Sequence record: MT446386.1
Source: Escherichia virus TH06
Length of the DNA: 64,000 nucleotides
Strand: one strand, 5' to 3'
In this document: piece after piece, positions 11,977 to 58,961 of the stretch
How the letters are laid out: the number at the start of each line of letters is the position of its first letter
How positions within the stretch are numbered: position 1 is the stretch's first letter
The notes under the pieces: model-generated
The model's input: the letters and a program-made list of their open reading frames with translations, nothing else
Database searches by the model: none
Told to the model about the DNA's origin: nothing
Position numbers and translations under genes: made by a program

Positions 11977-12145
11977 TTTATCTCGCAGGTGGCTCCTGCC
12001 CTTCGGTACTTGCAAGGGATTCTGTGAATTGCCCAATATACAAGCCTGCAATAACTTTATCAGCTATACAATATATACATTACTAGTGTGATATATCTAC
12101 TACCAAAGATACTTATATTATATAGTACTCTTATCGGTATAAGCG

Positions 12146-12981: not shown

Positions 12982-13005
12982 AGCCACCTCCGGGTGGCTT
13001 TTTTC
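12982..13005 (+). terminator. rho-independent terminator
   Basis: AGCCACC-TCCG-GGTGGCT followed by TTTTTT. Confidence 0.65.
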
Positions 13006-13017
13006 GTTGGAGACAAC

Positions 13018-13368
13018 ATGCAAAACACATTAAGTGATAACTTAGGGTTTATCGTTTTCTCAGCTCTTGTATTCTTTGGTGGTATGAAGTTTAACGAATA
13101 TCAAACAGACAGCAGTAATCTGGACAAAGAGAAGCACCAGCAAGAGTTAGAGATTGAAAGAAGTAGAGCAGCTGATGAAGTTGCTCAGAGAGTTCTTACC
13201 GGTTTATCTAACTGGAAGAAGAACACGGAAACCGTTTATAAAGAGATGCATTATGAGAAAACTAAACCAGTTTTTTATAATGTCTGCGCTAGTGATGAGT
13301 ATGTCAGCTTGTTCAACGAGCGACAACAGCAGGCAATCAATGCCCTTACCAACAAACCTAAAAGCTGA
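13018..13368 (+). CDS. membrane-anchored coiled-coil protein, i-spanin (Rz)-like architecture
   Basis: Start at ATG 13018 after GGAGA; N-terminal TM LGFIVFSALVFFGGM then charged helical region with late Cys. Confidence 0.4.
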   Translation: MQNTLSDNLGFIVFSALVFFGGMKFNEYQTDSSNLDKEKHQQELEIERSRAADEVAQRVLTGLSNWKKNTETVYKEMHYEKTKPVFYNVCASDEYVSLFNERQQQAINALTNKPKS

Positions 13369-13512
13369 ATGTAGGGTTGACCTACCTCTTTTAGAAAGTG
13401 CTCAAGGAAAAGCACTAGCCACTACGTTGGAGTGGTATCAGGACCAGTACACAGAATGTGCTGCTAATCACAATGGATTGTTAGAAGCTCTGAAAGAGCG
13501 TGGAATAGAATA

Positions 13513-13513
<1 letters not shown>
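13253..13513 (+). CDS. putative lipoprotein in +1 frame overlapping the 3' part of the previous gene, o-spanin (Rz1)-like
   Basis: MRKLNQFFIMSALVMSMSAC lipobox-like signal, Pro-containing mature part with Cys; overlapped arrangement. Confidence 0.3.
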
Positions 13514-15005
<1,492 letters not shown>

Positions 15006-32758: not shown

Positions 32759-33250
32759 TTAATATTTACCTTCGGTGTAAAGATTAGCTTCTGCAACTCT
32801 TCTATTATGAAGACCCTGACTTCTCTGCTTCTCTCCCTTGACCGTTATTTTATCCCAACGAAGAAATTCGGAATAAACATCCCCCTTAACATCTCCATTG
32901 ATTACTTTCCTTAACTTAGATGTGCTCAAAGCACCACTGCCAACGTTGAAGTTGAAAGAAGTGAGTGCATCAAACTCATGAACTAGTAAAGGAACCTTTA
33001 TGTTCTTCTGAGTAGCACGAACAGAGTCTTGTGTGTCTCTATCTAGCAGAGCTAGACAATCCTCTATAGAATACGTTAATCCTTGTCTAACCGGATAACC
33101 ATTCATATCGCGCGTAGCCCCTACACATATAGTCCAGATACCTGCGGAATCTTTATAAGCCTTGGTTCTCATACCCTCATGCTTCATGATGAATTCCATT
33201 CCAGCTGGGCTTAAGTTTAGTTGTACAGGTGGCAATGCGGCGTTATCCAT
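32759..33250 (-). CDS. endolysin, phage lysozyme (GH24-like)
   Basis: HEGMRTKAYKDSAGIWTICVG and FNFNVGSGALSTS resemble the T4/lambda-type lysozyme signature. Confidence 0.7.
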   Translation of the reverse strand: MDNAALPPVQLNLSPAGMEFIMKHEGMRTKAYKDSAGIWTICVGATRDMNGYPVRQGLTYSIEDCLALLDRDTQDSVRATQKNIKVPLLVHEFDALTSFNFNVGSGALSTSKLRKVINGDVKGDVYSEFLRWDKITVKGEKQRSQGLHNRRVAEANLYTEGKY

Positions 33251-53134: not shown

Positions 53135-53235
53135 TAATTACTTAACAATGAGTGGTTATTGATAAGTTAATAGTGACTTAAACAAGCTCATAGAGAGCGG
53201 GGCAATAGCGCCCTTACAATTGAAAGGTGAATATC

Positions 53236-54135
53236 ATGGCTAAAGTTTTTACTCTGGTTAACGAATCTGGTTTTAATGCACTGGCTAACAACATTCGTAG
53301 CAATAACGCGGCGATCAAACAAGATGTCTCTAACTTCCTGTTAGGGCACTTACAGCACTTCCGCAGTAACGGTAAAAAGCTGGACGTATTGCAGACGGCG
53401 GTTGACTTCTTGTTAACTGAACGTTTTCGTGATATGGATGTGATTGCCACTGCAATTACTTTCTTAACTCCTATCAAGTTTAACACTGATGCGGCAAATG
53501 GTCGTAAAAAGTGGATTAATCTGGAAGGTGAGGCGAAAGCTAAAGAAGACGCGAAAGAAGCGCAAATTAAAACCAAAATGGAACAAAACCGCGCTCGCTG
53601 GTCAAACGCTTTCGAAAACTTTGCTTTAGGCCGTGAAATTGAAGTCGATAACCCTAACTTTTACAAGGGTTGCAATGACAATGTGGCGGCACACCTGCAA
53701 ATCCCGGCGAAAAACAAGGAAGACTTTAACCAAGATATTTACGCTTTGGTTGAACGCTTGAATGCAATCCGTATTGAAGCCAAATTACTGGCTGATGAGC
53801 GCAACGGTGCAACTAGTGATAACACTATCGCCCTGAGTGAAGAAGTAGGAAAGGTTAAGAAATCTTTTGATTCACTCATCAAGAAAGTCACGGCCTCAAC
53901 GGTAGCGATCTCTGATAACTACCTGATGAACGCATCAAGCAAGGAATTAGAATCACTCGATTCATACGCTGATGAAATGGAAAAGACTGTTGCAGCTATG
54001 CAGGAGAAGTTAGAAAGTCTGCGCGGTCGTATCTCTTCAACGGTTGCTACCCGTACCGAACAAGCTGCGAAAGCAGAAGAGGAAGAAGTATTGCGTAAAG
54101 CGGCTGAAATTATGGCGGCACGTCAAGCGGCATAA
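53236..54135 (+). CDS. hypothetical helical protein (299 aa)
   Basis: Start moved to ATG 53236 after GAAAGGTG; preceded by about 0.9 kb without ORFs. Confidence 0.5.
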   Translation: MAKVFTLVNESGFNALANNIRSNNAAIKQDVSNFLLGHLQHFRSNGKKLDVLQTAVDFLLTERFRDMDVIATAITFLTPIKFNTDAANGRKKWINLEGEAKAKEDAKEAQIKTKMEQNRARWSNAFENFALGREIEVDNPNFYKGCNDNVAAHLQIPAKNKEDFNQDIYALVERLNAIRIEAKLLADERNGATSDNTIALSEEVGKVKKSFDSLIKKVTASTVAISDNYLMNASSKELESLDSYADEMEKTVAAMQEKLESLRGRISSTVATRTEQAAKAEEEEVLRKAAEIMAARQAA

Positions 54136-55405: not shown

Positions 55406-55422
55406 TAGGAATATAGCCCCTC

Positions 55423-55439
55423 TTTTAGTACTATGACGC
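55423..55439 (+). repeat. conserved 17-nt motif TTTTAGTACTATGACGC, copy 1
   Basis: Identical 17-mer also at 62143-62159; contains palindrome TAGTACTA; followed by a hairpin. Confidence 0.4.
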
Positions 55440-55484
55440 TCTTTCTGTAGCGTCGTGCCCTCTCCCCATTTGAAGATTCCGCAT

Positions 55485-55507
55485 AGCCGCCTTTGAGCGG
55501 CTTTTTG
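55485..55507 (+). terminator. rho-independent terminator
   Basis: AGCCGC-CTTTGA-GCGGCT followed by TTTTT. Confidence 0.55.
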
Positions 55508-55569
55508 CGTTGCTGTAAGTGCATTTGCGAGTGTATTTATAGCAACGGTCATGTGTTGCTTTCAGGTTT

Positions 55570-55596
55570 GCCCCGGCTACGGCTGGGGCTTTTTTA
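55570..55596 (+). terminator. rho-independent terminator
   Basis: GCCCCGGC-TACG-GCTGGGGC followed by TTTTTT. Confidence 0.65.
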
Positions 55597-55644
55597 TGCC
55601 CGTAAAACAGGAGGTATCAAGTTCTGATAACAACGGCCCAGCTA

Positions 55645-56034
55645 ATGTTGACATTGACTATTTATTATGAGGCAGGGAATCAGCCAACCGCATGTAAGGC
55701 TTTAGTTGCGGATACCGTAATAAATAGAATGGCACAACGAAAACTGACCGCTGAACAGGTGATAAGACAAAAGAACCAGTTTGAGTGGATTCCGGTACTA
55801 TTAAAACAGGAGAAACCTTATAAACGTTATGTAAAGCTGATTCGTGATAAAAATCCGATGACTAAGCAAGCCATTGGAGAAAGCGAGCGGCTAGCTAAAC
55901 GTGCCCTTAAGAAGAATTATGTTCCGCTTTATAGTGGGACTTACTTTCAGAGTAAGAGCGAAGGGGTGCCAAAATGGTATGCCAATCCTATGTATTGTGG
56001 TGATTTAGTGTTCGATAATAGCTCTAGGGAATAA
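55645..56034 (+). CDS. cell wall hydrolase, SleB-like (Hydrolase_2-type) domain protein
   Basis: LTLTIYYEAGNQPTACKALVADTVINRMAQ...QKNQFEW resembles the SleB-family N-terminal signature. Confidence 0.5.
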   Translation: MLTLTIYYEAGNQPTACKALVADTVINRMAQRKLTAEQVIRQKNQFEWIPVLLKQEKPYKRYVKLIRDKNPMTKQAIGESERLAKRALKKNYVPLYSGTYFQSKSEGVPKWYANPMYCGDLVFDNSSRE

Positions 56035-56233
56035 TCTCTAGTGCCAGATTTAACAAACTAAATTCCTTTATAAACCAACCACTTAGTAAATTTATTGAAA
56101 AAGATGGTAGTATTCTGGGACTATGGGTAATGCTCTGTATATAGACCCTTTGAAAATTTCTTAGAAAATAAGTTTACTAAATATAACTTACTTAAATAAT
56201 ATTACTTTTAATCTCTGATAAAGGGTAAATAAT

Positions 56234-56530
56234 ATGACTTTAGAGGTATATAAATTCCTTTTTGTAAGCTGTTTAACTATCAGCGTTATAGGGTTTATTG
56301 TTCTCAGAAACAAAGCAGCAAGCTGGGAGAGAATGTATAAATCTCTAGTCCGAGTGGATGAGATGTATAATGAGAAAGTTAAAGTAACACTTAATGATCT
56401 TATTATGCAAGTTGAAGACAGAAATAAGCGTCTTCAGAACCTCAACCATGAAGTATTACGACTTGCTCGTGCTAATGAAGACTTGCGAGTAGCTATTGCT
56501 AAGCAGCAGGAGATTAACAGTGAAAGTTAA
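56234..56530 (+). CDS. membrane-anchored coiled-coil protein (98 aa)
   Basis: N-terminal TM FLFVSCLTISVIGFIVL then heptad-like region. Confidence 0.45.
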   Translation: MTLEVYKFLFVSCLTISVIGFIVLRNKAASWERMYKSLVRVDEMYNEKVKVTLNDLIMQVEDRNKRLQNLNHEVLRLARANEDLRVAIAKQQEINSES

Positions 56531-56756
56531 TATTAAATCTGATCGTACAATGCTTCGATTAAATAACATGAAGCCGGGGGTTCTGTTTGAGCGTAAAGAA
56601 TCCCTTTACATCAGAACCGACACATTGTACGCAGACAATTATGTCAACTGTGTTGATGTGGTAACTGGAAAGCTCATGCCTTTTAAACGGGATGAAGTTT
56701 GCCAAGTACGCAGTGATCTCCATATAACCAACATAGAGGCTAAAGATGAAGATTAA
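56520..56756 (+). CDS. small protein, paralog family C member 1
   Basis: GTG 56520 after AGGAG gives MKVNIK N-terminus like other members; shares G.VF...Y...V.L.TG pattern. Confidence 0.45.
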   Translation: MKVNIKSDRTMLRLNNMKPGVLFERKESLYIRTDTLYADNYVNCVDVVTGKLMPFKRDEVCQVRSDLHITNIEAKDED

Positions 56757-57003
56757 TCTTGAAGTAAATGAACCGTCTTTGTGTGTTGGTGATCTCAAAC
56801 TTGGGGATGTATTCCAAATCAGGGAAACACGAGCAGATTTCTACATGGTTGTTCAGCTATTTACCTCACAGATTGAAGAGACCAAGCCTTCTGATGGGGG
56901 TTGTGTCGTCCTTAGTCTGACAAATAAGCAAGTCCTTAAACTTAGCTCGAAAAGCAAGGTTGTTCTTCTTCATGATGTTGTTATTACTAACAAGGGCAAG
57001 TAG
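56746..57003 (+). CDS. small protein, paralog family C member 2
   Basis: MKINLE..., LKLGDVFQ...FYMVV. Confidence 0.5.
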   Translation: MKINLEVNEPSLCVGDLKLGDVFQIRETRADFYMVVQLFTSQIEETKPSDGGCVVLSLTNKQVLKLSSKSKVVLLHDVVITNKGK

Positions 57004-57222
57004 ATGGAAATTAAAGTAGTTGATTATCCTAAATATGCAAATGCAGAAGATGTTAAAGGTGGTGATGTTTTCTCTTACGACAGACGTTTCTGGCTGATGT
57101 TAGAAGATAAAACTCCCGATGGTTTATGTAAGGCCGCCAATCTGAACAGCGGTTCTGTTGAAGTCTTCGGTCTATCAACCACTGTTATGCCACGCCCTGA
57201 TCTGTGTTTATCCCAAAAGTAA
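57004..57222 (+). CDS. small protein, paralog family C member 3
   Basis: MEIKVV..., VKGGDVFS. Confidence 0.5.
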   Translation: MEIKVVDYPKYANAEDVKGGDVFSYDRRFWLMLEDKTPDGLCKAANLNSGSVEVFGLSTTVMPRPDLCLSQK

Positions 57223-58885: not shown

Positions 58886-58961
58886 GCGCTCTTAGCTCAA
58901 TGGATAGAGCAGTAGCCTTCTAAGCTATTGGTTACAGGTTCGAGTCCTGTAGGGCGCACCA
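58886..58961 (+). tRNA. tRNA-Arg (anticodon UCU)
   Basis: 76-nt cloverleaf: acceptor GCGCTCT/AGGGCGC, D-arm GCTC/GAGC, anticodon stem GTAGC/GCTAT with loop CTTCTAA, T-arm ACAGG-TTCGAGT-CCTGT, encoded CCA. Confidence 0.8.

What the first reader, a model, noticed from the sequence alone, without database searches (positions are those of the whole stretch)
55645..56530. SleB-like cell-wall hydrolase followed by a membrane-anchored coiled-coil protein in the early region
ORF 55645-56034 has a SleB-family-like N-terminal signature and 56234-56530 has a TM plus coiled-coil architecture. This is a second lysis-like pair, separate from the GH24 endolysin at 32759-33250 and the spanin-like pair at 13018-13513. 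It may act in entry, in lysis, or be unrelated.
Basis: partly seen in the sequence, partly recalled or inferred. Interest (0 to 1): 0.45.

Follow-up and report, generated by a model that had tools for sequence, protein, structure and literature searches.

The report
Early-region SleB-like cell-wall enzyme gene
This coliphage gene does encode a small SleB/CwlJ-type cell-wall-cutting enzyme, already labelled as such in public databases, but the membrane protein next to it shows no sign of being its lysis partner, so the finding is largely ordinary.

Summary

It has no signal peptide or membrane anchor, lies in the sigma70-dependent early region, and was not detected in the SU10 particle proteome. 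One natural variant lacks its 3' third. The best reading is a dispensable accessory lytic transglycosylase that reaches the wall only after the holin fires, alongside the canonical GH24 lysozyme and Rz-like spanin found elsewhere in the window.

ORF 56234-56530 does have an N-terminal TM helix plus a coiled coil. However, it is predicted C-terminus-in, has no lipoprotein partner, overlaps the downstream small genes, and is not next to the SleB-like gene in GAP52. The "lysis pair" idea is not supported.

One new detail: the ancestral start of the enzyme gene (55624) is a conserved CTG behind the only Shine-Dalgarno site, so the protein is probably 136 aa.

The parts
55485..55510 (+). First terminator-like hairpin (AGCCGC-loop-GCGGCT plus T run) in the structured spacer upstream of the enzyme gene
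   Evidence: Terminator scan; RNA fold of 55406-55660 has z -3.33 and four hairpins.
55570..55597 (+). Second intrinsic-terminator-like hairpin (8 bp, 7 G-C, T6), ending about 12 nt before the Shine-Dalgarno site. Conserved, with stem changes that keep the pairing, in SU7, ECBP2, PAS59, EP335 and Bas89.
   Evidence: Replaced by inserted genes in phiEco32 and ShigP1.
55609..55615 (+). Shine-Dalgarno AGGAGGT (AGGGGGT in the SU7 and EP335 lineages). It is the only SD-like site before the gene, 9 nt upstream of CTG 55624 and 30 nt upstream of ATG 55645.
   Evidence: Sequence read directly; conserved in 14 of 14 Gordonclarkvirinae loci.
55624..56034 (+). SleB/CwlJ-type (Hydrolase_2) single-domain lytic-transglycosylase-like CDS. 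Probably 136 aa from CTG 55624; annotated as 129 aa from ATG 55645. The glutamate aligned with that of SleB's YGESRGEP motif is E9 of the 129-aa form, which is E16 of the 136-aa form (codon 55669-55671).
   Evidence: family and fold; start; dN/dS 0.10-0.16.
56035..56233 (+). 199-bp AT-rich spacer with blocks conserved across the subfamily. It includes a -10-like box at 56207-56212 (TTTAAT; TATAAT in SU7, EP335 and ECBP2) and an SD-like AAAGGG before ATG 56234. It has no exact or one-mismatch match to the phage sigma (gp36) TAATGTATA element.
   Evidence: Alignment; SU7 promoter annotation; pattern search.
56234..56530 (+). 98-aa early membrane protein (SU10 gp115 / phiEco32 gp116): TM helix at about residues 5-24, then an approximately 6-heptad coiled coil (about 53-95). 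Predicted N-out/C-in. The public label 'DNA helicase' is unsupported.
56520..57222 (+). Three tandem small paralogous genes (56520-56756, 56746-57003, 57004-57222). The first overlaps the end of the 98-aa gene, which places that gene in the downstream unit rather than with the enzyme gene.
   Evidence: cross-hits to phrog_6570 and phrog_7832.

Best explanation
ORF 55624/55645-56034 encodes a leaderless, single-domain SleB/CwlJ-type peptidoglycan lytic transglycosylase.

Shown: family membership, fold, an invariant glutamate at the position of the SleB YGESRGEP glutamate, purifying selection, absence of any export signal, and location in the early region.

Inferred: it is transcribed from the host-sigma70 early promoters by read-through of the terminator hairpins. 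It is translated at a low level from a conserved non-canonical CUG start behind the only SD. It accumulates harmlessly in the cytoplasm and reaches the murein only when the phage holin permeabilises the inner membrane. There it cuts glycan strands as a dispensable helper to the canonical soluble GH24 lysozyme.

The adjacent 98-aa protein is an independent early inner-membrane protein. Its coiled coil most likely faces the cytoplasm. It is the first gene of the next translationally coupled cluster of small host-takeover genes, not a holin, spanin or other partner of the enzyme.

For: Active-site glutamate: E9 and R28 are the only invariant residues in 65 sequences. The profile's invariant E aligns with the E of YGESRGEP in 4f55. 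A catalytic glutamate is reported as essential for SleB lytic transglycosylase activity (PMC12331253).

Constraint: dN/dS 0.10-0.16.

Leaderless: the maximum 19-residue hydropathy is 0.71 even with the N-terminal extension, against a conventional TM threshold of about 1.6. In contrast, the Bf23 (T5-like) and DrSchubert (rV5-like) homologues, and most of the metagenomic viral-contig homologues retrieved, start with hydrophobic signal-like N-termini.

A holin-type route is plausible: the GH24 lysozyme in the window also lacks a SAR or signal sequence, so a large-hole holin is expected.

Early class: perfect gp36-promoter sites lie elsewhere (5431, 12074, 12146, 22331, 39875) and none precedes these genes. 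The literature places this cluster in the early class, with sigma70 promoters upstream of SU10 gene 120.

Not a particle component: absent from the 34 proteins in the SU10 MS data.

Dispensable: a 158-bp deletion removes window-equivalent 55882-56039 in a 76-kb contig and in a second sample.

Precedent: the GAP52 and 7-11 orthologues are annotated 'putative endolysin' beside another endolysin gene. CR3_087 has been implicated in lysis and CB7_83 is toxic in E. coli (PMC7344957).

Separateness of the 98-aa gene.
Against: No enzymatic, expression or localisation data exist for any kuravirus orthologue. The timing, the low expression and the holin-dependent access are all inferred.

The gene is far from the lysozyme and spanin genes, and no holin has been identified in the window.

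The His of the family's G-x-H-x-F motif is Leu here (GDLVF) and in the closest relatives. Its importance is unknown.

SleB itself, from my own knowledge, prefers muramic-delta-lactam cortex, which E. coli lacks. Activity on ordinary murein is therefore assumed from the phage context.

The deletion variant comes from metagenome assemblies of what may be a single study, so dispensability rests on one lineage.

The topology of the 98-aa protein rests only on the positive-inside rule. That rule is unreliable for proteins with very short N-tails: lambda Rz has 1 K/R on the N side and 3 on the C side yet is N-in.
Confidence: 0.5

Rival explanations
1. The two genes form a functional lysis or envelope module: the membrane-anchored coiled-coil protein acts as a holin-, releasin- or spanin-like partner that gives the SleB-like enzyme access to the wall.
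For: The order 147-aa gene, SleB-like gene, TM/coiled-coil gene is kept in SU7, EP335 and two divergent metagenomic relatives with 57-72% identical enzymes. There is no terminator between the two genes, so read-through co-transcription is possible. In Certrevirus phages a small membrane protein gene overlaps the SleB-like gene and has been proposed as a holin (PMC7344957).
Against: The whole early region is syntenic in these relatives, so the adjacency is uninformative. There is a 199-bp spacer with its own conserved -10-like box. The 98-aa gene overlaps the downstream gene instead. The predicted topology is C-in. No o-spanin or lipobox ORF is present, and a separate Rz-like spanin exists. GAP52 has a soluble, unrelated neighbour. 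The 98-aa family is confined to kuravirus-like phages, whereas the enzyme family occurs in more than 1000 phage records. Early expression of a holin would be self-defeating.
Confidence: 0.08
2. The enzyme is a virion-associated or ejected wall-penetrating protein used during genome entry.
For: Many podophages carry a lytic transglycosylase for entry. A small, low-copy protein could be missed by MS.
Against: The gene lies in the early cluster, on the opposite strand from the structural module, with no gp36-type promoter. It was not among the 34 proteins detected in SU10 preparations, although internal virion and injection proteins were. It is a free-standing 15-kDa domain, not fused to a structural protein. 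A deletion variant exists.
Confidence: 0.07
3. The protein has a non-lytic early role. Examples: binding and regulating a host or phage factor in the way T7 lysozyme binds T7 RNA polymerase, modifying the wall or division site early in infection, or excluding superinfecting phage.
For: Early-region placement among host-takeover genes. There are unusual expression-limiting features: a terminator directly upstream and a conserved CTG at the ancestral start. Secreted SleB-like proteins sit in early regions of T5-like phages and next to rIIA in an rV5-like phage, so a role outside the classical lysis cassette may be general.
Against: The glutamate and the fold are intact, which points to enzymatic use. 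The leaderless protein has no route to the wall before the holin fires. There is no hit to defence or anti-defence families, and no precedent for a regulatory SleB-family protein that I know of.
Confidence: 0.2
4. The gene is a decaying remnant: loss of the ATG/TTG start, a terminator in front and occasional deletions mean it is no longer expressed or useful.
For: CTG sits at the ancestral start in all 14 Gordonclarkvirinae loci examined. A deletion variant exists. SU7, ECBP2 and EP335 annotators call only a 101-aa fragment.
Against: dN/dS is 0.10-0.16 while synonymous divergence is high (dS 0.38-0.85). The ORF is intact in 85 of 99 matching phage records at 80% coverage or more. Motif residues are invariant. 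The seven codons between CTG and ATG differ from SU7 only by synonymous changes and stay homologous to the N-termini of relatives.
Confidence: 0.05

Closest known systems
Bacillus SleB catalytic domain and CwlJ (Pfam PF07486 Hydrolase_2; PDB 4f55, 4fet)
   Different: Only about 15-16% identity. It lacks the N-terminal peptidoglycan-binding domain and signal peptide of SleB. It carries a helical insertion at about residues 50-90, and Leu replaces the family's common His in G-x-H-x-F. The host has no spore cortex or muramic-delta-lactam (my own knowledge), so the substrate must be ordinary murein.
GAP52_091 and the 7-11 'putative endolysin' (Grimontviridae, elongated-head podophages related to phiEco32)
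   Same: Leaderless, about 141 aa, with the motif Glu at residue 17. It lies in the equivalent right-end region transcribed with the early genes. The genome also carries another 'putative endolysin' (GAP52_046).
   Different: About 34% identity. It uses a canonical start. The downstream neighbour is a soluble 70-aa protein. No experiment has been done on either.
SleB-like proteins of Vequintavirinae (CB7_83, CR3_087) and of T5-like phages (Bf23 sleB, AKFV33 ORF81)
   Same: A second muralytic gene of the same family, encoded away from the main endolysin. In T5-like phages it is in the early region (PMC3326045; PMC11180984). CR3_087 is implicated in lysis and CB7_83 is toxic on expression (PMC7344957).
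   Different: The Bf23 and DrSchubert representatives start with a hydrophobic signal-like N-terminus, and CB7_83 is reported to have a signal peptide, so they can reach the periplasm without a holin. In CB7 a 2-TM holin candidate overlaps the gene. The kuravirus protein is leaderless and has no such partner.
Rz-type i-spanin (compared with the 98-aa protein)
   Same: A small protein with an N-terminal TM helix followed by a coiled coil.
   Different: Predicted opposite topology. No o-spanin partner ORF. No PHROG or Pfam spanin hit. Shorter (98 aa) with a single coiled-coil segment. Encoded in the early region. A genuine Rz-like spanin pair lies at 12994-13513.

Membership tests
Hydrolase_2 / SleB-CwlJ cell-wall hydrolase family (PF07486) | Sequence match to the family model above the curated threshold | tested here: met
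   32.2 bits against gathering 27, E 1.7e-7. A family profile hits SleB 4f55/4fet at E 1.6e-19.
Hydrolase_2 / SleB-CwlJ cell-wall hydrolase family (PF07486) | SleB catalytic-domain fold | tested here: met
   [not shown]
Hydrolase_2 / SleB-CwlJ cell-wall hydrolase family (PF07486) | Catalytic glutamate at the end of helix 1 | tested here: met
   E9 (E16 in the 136-aa form) is invariant in 65 sequences and in all orthologues. The profile's invariant E aligns with the E of YGESRGEP in 4f55. That this particular Glu is the catalytic one rests on my own knowledge; one search says only that a catalytic glutamate is essential.
Hydrolase_2 / SleB-CwlJ cell-wall hydrolase family (PF07486) | Lytic transglycosylase chemistry (1,6-anhydro-MurNAc products) | not testable with these tools
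   Needs purified protein, sacculi digestion and LC-MS.
SleB proper (as opposed to CwlJ-like) | N-terminal signal peptide plus peptidoglycan-binding domain ahead of the catalytic domain | tested here: not met
   The protein is 129-136 aa and the domain starts at residue 1-8. Maximum hydropathy is 0.71. The architecture is therefore CwlJ-like.
Canonical holin-dependent endolysin | Cytoplasmic muralytic enzyme without an export signal | tested here: met
Canonical holin-dependent endolysin | Late expression and/or linkage to holin or spanin genes | tested here: not met
   Located in the early cluster, with no gp36 promoter element. The lysozyme is about 22 kb away and the spanins about 42 kb away. 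The only TM protein nearby is the 98-aa protein, which does not look like a holin.
Canonical holin-dependent endolysin | Required for host lysis | tested here: inconclusive
   A natural 158-bp deletion in a full-length contig suggests it is dispensable. There are no genetics.
Virion-associated peptidoglycan hydrolase | Present in particles, or encoded in or fused to the structural module | tested here: not met
   Not among the 34 proteins in the SU10 MS data. The gene lies outside the minus-strand structural block 17871-48042. The MS sample was PEG-precipitated only, so this is a weak negative.
Spanin (i-spanin/o-spanin), for the 98-aa protein | Type II topology (N-in, periplasmic coiled coil) | tested here: inconclusive
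   K+R is 0-1 on the N flank and 4-5 on the C flank in four orthologues, which predicts N-out/C-in. The rule is fallible for short N-tails.
Spanin (i-spanin/o-spanin), for the 98-aa protein | Partner outer-membrane lipoprotein gene embedded, overlapping or adjacent | tested here: not met
   No ORF with a lipobox occurs in or after 56234-56530 in any plus-strand frame. The genuine Rz-like pair is at 12994-13513.
DNA helicase (public label of the 98-aa protein: PHROG 12154, phiEco32 gp116, SU10 gp115) | Walker A/B NTPase core or a helicase domain hit | tested here: not met
   98 aa with a single Gly and no GK[ST] (sequence). No Pfam helicase hit. The only link is a weak coiled-coil overlap with phrog_243, E 0.004.

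The most novel reading that the evidence does not exclude
The leaderless SleB-type enzyme is not a lysis helper. It would instead be a deliberately low-abundance early protein, initiated at CUG and placed behind a terminator, with a new job. That job could be a T7-lysozyme-like regulatory interaction or wall remodelling from inside the cell, possibly together with the membrane-anchored coiled-coil neighbour. If so, it would also explain why SleB-like genes sit in early regions of several unrelated groups of virulent coliphages.
Probability: 0.1. Interest if true: 0.6.

Novelty: already known. Interest (0 to 1): 0.22.

Why it matters
The domain assignment is already public. The identical SU10 protein is named as SleB-domain-containing in UniProt/BFVD, and ShigP1 and EcP-vB annotate it as "cell wall hydrolase". 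The finding therefore adds little by itself.

What remains open, and modestly interesting, is a recurring but untested pattern. Virulent enterobacterial phages of several lineages (phiEco32/7-11-like, T5-like, rV5-like) carry a second, SleB/CwlJ-type muralytic gene away from the lysis genes, often in early regions. No function has been shown experimentally.

The kuravirus version is the leaderless extreme and seems to be tuned for low expression (a conserved CUG start and an upstream terminator). For practical annotation, this work corrects the likely N-terminus (136 aa rather than 129, 128 or 101) and flags the propagated "DNA helicase" label on the neighbouring gene as wrong.

Tried and rejected
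1. The first AF2 run used only close orthologues (11 sequences) and gave pLDDT 51. It was discarded and rerun with 65 diverse homologues.

3. A single-sequence phmmer search against the PDB found nothing meaningful.

4. Frameshift idea: ORF 55551-55670, which ends in '...DIDYLL', might have been a frameshifted N-terminus. It is rejected because it is just the alternative frame of the same bases, and it runs through the terminator hairpin.

5. Translational coupling to an upstream ORF ending in the CTGA overlap. It is rejected because that frame is not a conserved ORF: only 9 open codons in phiEco32 and ShigP1, no start in L011, and a different peptide in ECBP2.

6. A SAR or weak-TM role for the hydrophobic N-terminal helix. 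It is rejected on hydropathy, 0.71.

7. A phage-sigma (gp36) promoter in front of either gene. There is no exact or one-mismatch match in either upstream spacer; the only nearby near-match (56331, one mismatch) lies inside the 98-aa ORF, and the window-wide count is at chance level.

8. Defence or anti-defence families (PADLOC) and NCBIfam gave no meaningful hits.

9. Rfam on the whole window found only one tRNA.

10. The phiEco32 papers by Savalia 2008 and Pavlova 2012, and the SleB structure paper, are not held in the library. The temporal class is therefore taken second-hand from PMC8948821 and PMC4281155.

Full report
**Identity of the window.** The 2.3 kb around the finding is 94-97% identical to Escherichia phages EC.W2-6, SU10, SGF2 and others. 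It matches 99 records, all phiEco32-like podophages (Gordonclarkvirinae, mainly Kuravirus). In SU10 the two ORFs are gp116 (390 bp) and gp115 (297 bp). In phiEco32 they are gp117 and gp116. The window has a minus-strand structural block (17871-48042) flanked by plus-strand blocks of small genes. The finding lies in the plus-strand block that the literature assigns to the early, host-sigma70-dependent class (PMC8948821). In SU10 the strong early promoters sit upstream of gene 120, the homologue of the window's 53227-54135 ORF (PMC4281155).

Both ORFs are present at the stated coordinates.
- The 129-aa product passes Pfam's curated threshold for Hydrolase_2/SleB (32.2 bits against 27). It also hits the PHROG endolysin family 938.
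- Its close relatives form a small, isolated clade. Among 1.84 billion representative proteins there are only 2 clusters at E<1e-30 and 75 at E<1e-3.
- A profile of 65 of these sequences matches the crystallised SleB catalytic domains end to end at E 1.6e-19.
- Only two residues are invariant across the 65 sequences: E9 and R28. The profile's invariant E aligns with the glutamate of the SleB motif YGESRGEP. A catalytic glutamate is reported as essential for SleB lytic transglycosylase activity (PMC12331253). That this motif glutamate is the catalytic one rests on my own knowledge.
- The gene is under purifying selection, with dN/dS 0.10-0.16 at dS 0.38-0.85.

**Architecture of the enzyme.** It is a bare catalytic domain, like CwlJ rather than SleB proper. 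It has no signal peptide, SAR segment or TM segment; the maximum 19-residue hydropathy is 0.71. This separates it from several other homologues:
- Most of the 52 distinct metagenomic viral-contig homologues retrieved have a hydrophobic leader.
- The T5-like (Bf23) and rV5-like (DrSchubert) versions start with signal-like N-termini.
- The leaderless form is shared with GAP52 and 7-11, where the orthologue is annotated "putative endolysin".
- The leaderless form accounts for about half of the nearest representative clusters.

**The start codon.** The annotated ATG (55645) has no Shine-Dalgarno site. The only one, AGGAGGT at 55609-55615, lies 9 nt before an in-frame CTG at 55624.
- Two divergent relatives have a canonical start at exactly that aligned position, preceded by AAGGAGG: ATG in L007 and TTG in L005.
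- All 14 Gordonclarkvirinae loci examined have CTG there. In most of them a stop codon lies one or two codons upstream; the open frame never extends more than six codons.
- The ATG at 55645 exists only in Kuravirus proper. In SU7, ECBP2, PAS59, EP335 and Bas89 it is CTT.
- The seven intervening codons differ from SU7 only at synonymous third positions. They encode LITTAQL, which is homologous to the LLTTAAL and MLSTAVL N-termini of the relatives.
- With the extension the motif Glu sits at residue 16, close to the commonest position (residues 16-17) in leaderless homologues. With the ATG it would sit at residue 9.
- The Bas89 record already annotates the 136-aa CTG-start CDS. Other records (TTG start) or 101 aa.
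- I infer CUG initiation and therefore weak translation. This has not been shown.

**Transcription context.** A conserved intrinsic-terminator hairpin (55570-55597) ends about 12 nt before the SD, and another lies at 55485-55510. The 240-nt spacer is strongly structured, with z -3.33. There is no room for a promoter between the terminator and the SD. Expression must therefore come from read-through or from a promoter inside the spacer; this is inferred. The same spacer is an insertion hot spot: phiEco32 has gp119 and gp118 there, and ShigP1 has a 125-aa ORF. Neither gene is preceded by the phage-sigma element TAATGTATA. Perfect copies occur at five other places in the window (consensus from PMC8948821).

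**The neighbouring 98-aa protein.**
- Residues 5-23 form a TM-grade hydrophobic segment (hydropathy 2.15).
- The rest has no Pro or Gly and carries a clean heptad pattern: 11 of 17 a/d positions are hydrophobic.
- The same layout holds in SU7 and in two divergent relatives.
- In all four sequences the N-flank has 0-1 Lys/Arg and the C-flank has 4-5. This predicts that the coiled coil is cytoplasmic. The rule is weak for very short N-tails, so I put this at roughly 70%.
- The family is confined to kuravirus-like phages and has no Pfam domain.
- Its public name, "DNA helicase", is unfounded. It comes from PHROG 12154 and the phiEco32 and SU10 RefSeq records.

**Are the two genes a pair?** The evidence says no.
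- They are 199 bp apart. The spacer contains blocks conserved across the subfamily, including a -10-like box that is a perfect TATAAT in SU7, where it is annotated as a promoter.
- The 98-aa gene overlaps the first of three tandem paralogous small genes downstream.
- There is no lipoprotein ORF to make a spanin pair.
- The window has its own Rz-like spanin pair and a soluble GH24 lysozyme elsewhere.
- In GAP52 the SleB-like gene is followed by a soluble, unrelated 70-aa protein. In T5-like and rV5-like phages the neighbours differ again.
- Synteny within Gordonclarkvirinae extends to the whole early region, so it says nothing about coupling.

**Function.**
- A particle-borne entry enzyme is unlikely. 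The gene is in the early region, and the protein was not among the 34 proteins detected in SU10 preparations, which did include internal virion and injection proteins.
- A pseudogene is excluded by the selection data.
- A kuravirus genome of full length (76,344 bp), and a second sample, carry a 158-bp deletion that removes the last 50 codons and the stop codon. The gene therefore appears to be dispensable.
- The phage's GH24 lysozyme is also leaderless, which implies a large-hole holin that would release any cytoplasmic muralytic enzyme.
- The most economical model is an accessory lytic transglycosylase that accumulates from early times and acts at lysis. This is the same logic used for the GAP52 and 7-11 annotation and for CR3_087 and CB7_83 (PMC7344957).
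- I give this model about 0.5. The main rival, at about 0.2, is a non-lytic early role. This rival is suggested by the early placement and the expression-limiting features, and by the recurrence of SleB-like genes in early regions of T5-like phages (PMC3326045; PMC11180984).

**Novelty.** The SleB-domain identity is already recorded for the identical SU10 protein (BFVD/UniProt A0A0B4N207). Some GenBank records also carry it: ShigP1 and EcP-vB annotate "cell wall hydrolase". The family occurs in more than 1000 phage records. Nothing here is a new kind of system. The useful additions are the probable CUG start and 136-aa product, the evidence for dispensability, the contrast between leaderless and secreted forms, and the rejection of the pair and "helicase" readings.

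Noticed in passing
window 55624-55644: The conserved in-frame CTG at the ancestral start position lies 9 nt after the only SD. The annotated ATG (55645) is specific to the Kuravirus lineage, and public records disagree on the product length (136, 129, 128 or 101 aa).
   Followed up: yes
window 56234-56530; phiEco32 gp116, SU10 gp115, PHROG 12154: The 98-aa TM/coiled-coil protein carries a propagated 'DNA helicase' label, although it has no NTPase motif or helicase-domain hit.
   Followed up: yes
L095 (Logan ERR14760741, 76,344-bp contig) and L096 (ERR14760471); window-equivalent 55882-56039: A natural 158-bp deletion fuses codon 79 of the SleB-like gene to the downstream spacer, giving a 113-aa chimeric product (P0015).
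   Followed up: yes
window 55406-55645: The 240-nt spacer has four stable hairpins (z -3.33), two of them terminator-like. The same site carries inserted genes in phiEco32 (gp119 'tail protein' plus gp118), ShigP1 (125-aa ORF) and EcP-vB ('YadA-like protein'). It may be a moron insertion hot spot, or encode a small RNA or an attenuator.
   Followed up: partly
window 56520-56756, 56746-57003, 57004-57222: These are three tandem small paralogous genes (cross-hits to phrog_6570, 7832, 16423 and 9955) of unknown function, with overlapping or abutting start and stop codons.
   Followed up: no
window 53227-54135: This 302-aa ORF is the homologue of SU10 gene 120, upstream of which the SU10 paper places the early promoters. 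It has a weak JetC/SMC-like (DUF3584) hit in PADLOC, E 2.4e-4. This is probably coiled-coil similarity only.
   Followed up: no
window 5431(+), 12074(-), 12146(+), 22331(-), 39875(-): These are perfect copies of the phiEco32 gp36-sigma promoter element TAATGTATA. The pair at 12074 and 12146 is divergent and sits just upstream of the ORF that precedes the spanin genes.
   Followed up: partly
window 12994-13513 and 13513-13953: An Rz-like i-spanin (phrog_1152) overlaps an ORF containing an internal 'MRKLNQFFIMSALVMSMSAC' lipoprotein-like start. A Macro-domain protein (PF01661, E 1.3e-10) follows immediately.
   Followed up: partly
window 58886-58961: tRNA-Arg(TCT) lies among the early small genes. 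It is also annotated at the equivalent place in ShigP1.
   Followed up: no
[not shown]
   Followed up: yes
L005 8025-9311 and L007 7730-8895 (metagenomic relatives): Divergent kuravirus-like contigs carry TerB-domain and KilA-N genes a few genes downstream of the SleB-like gene. GAP52 has TerD/TerZ-like genes just upstream of its SleB-like gene.
   Followed up: no
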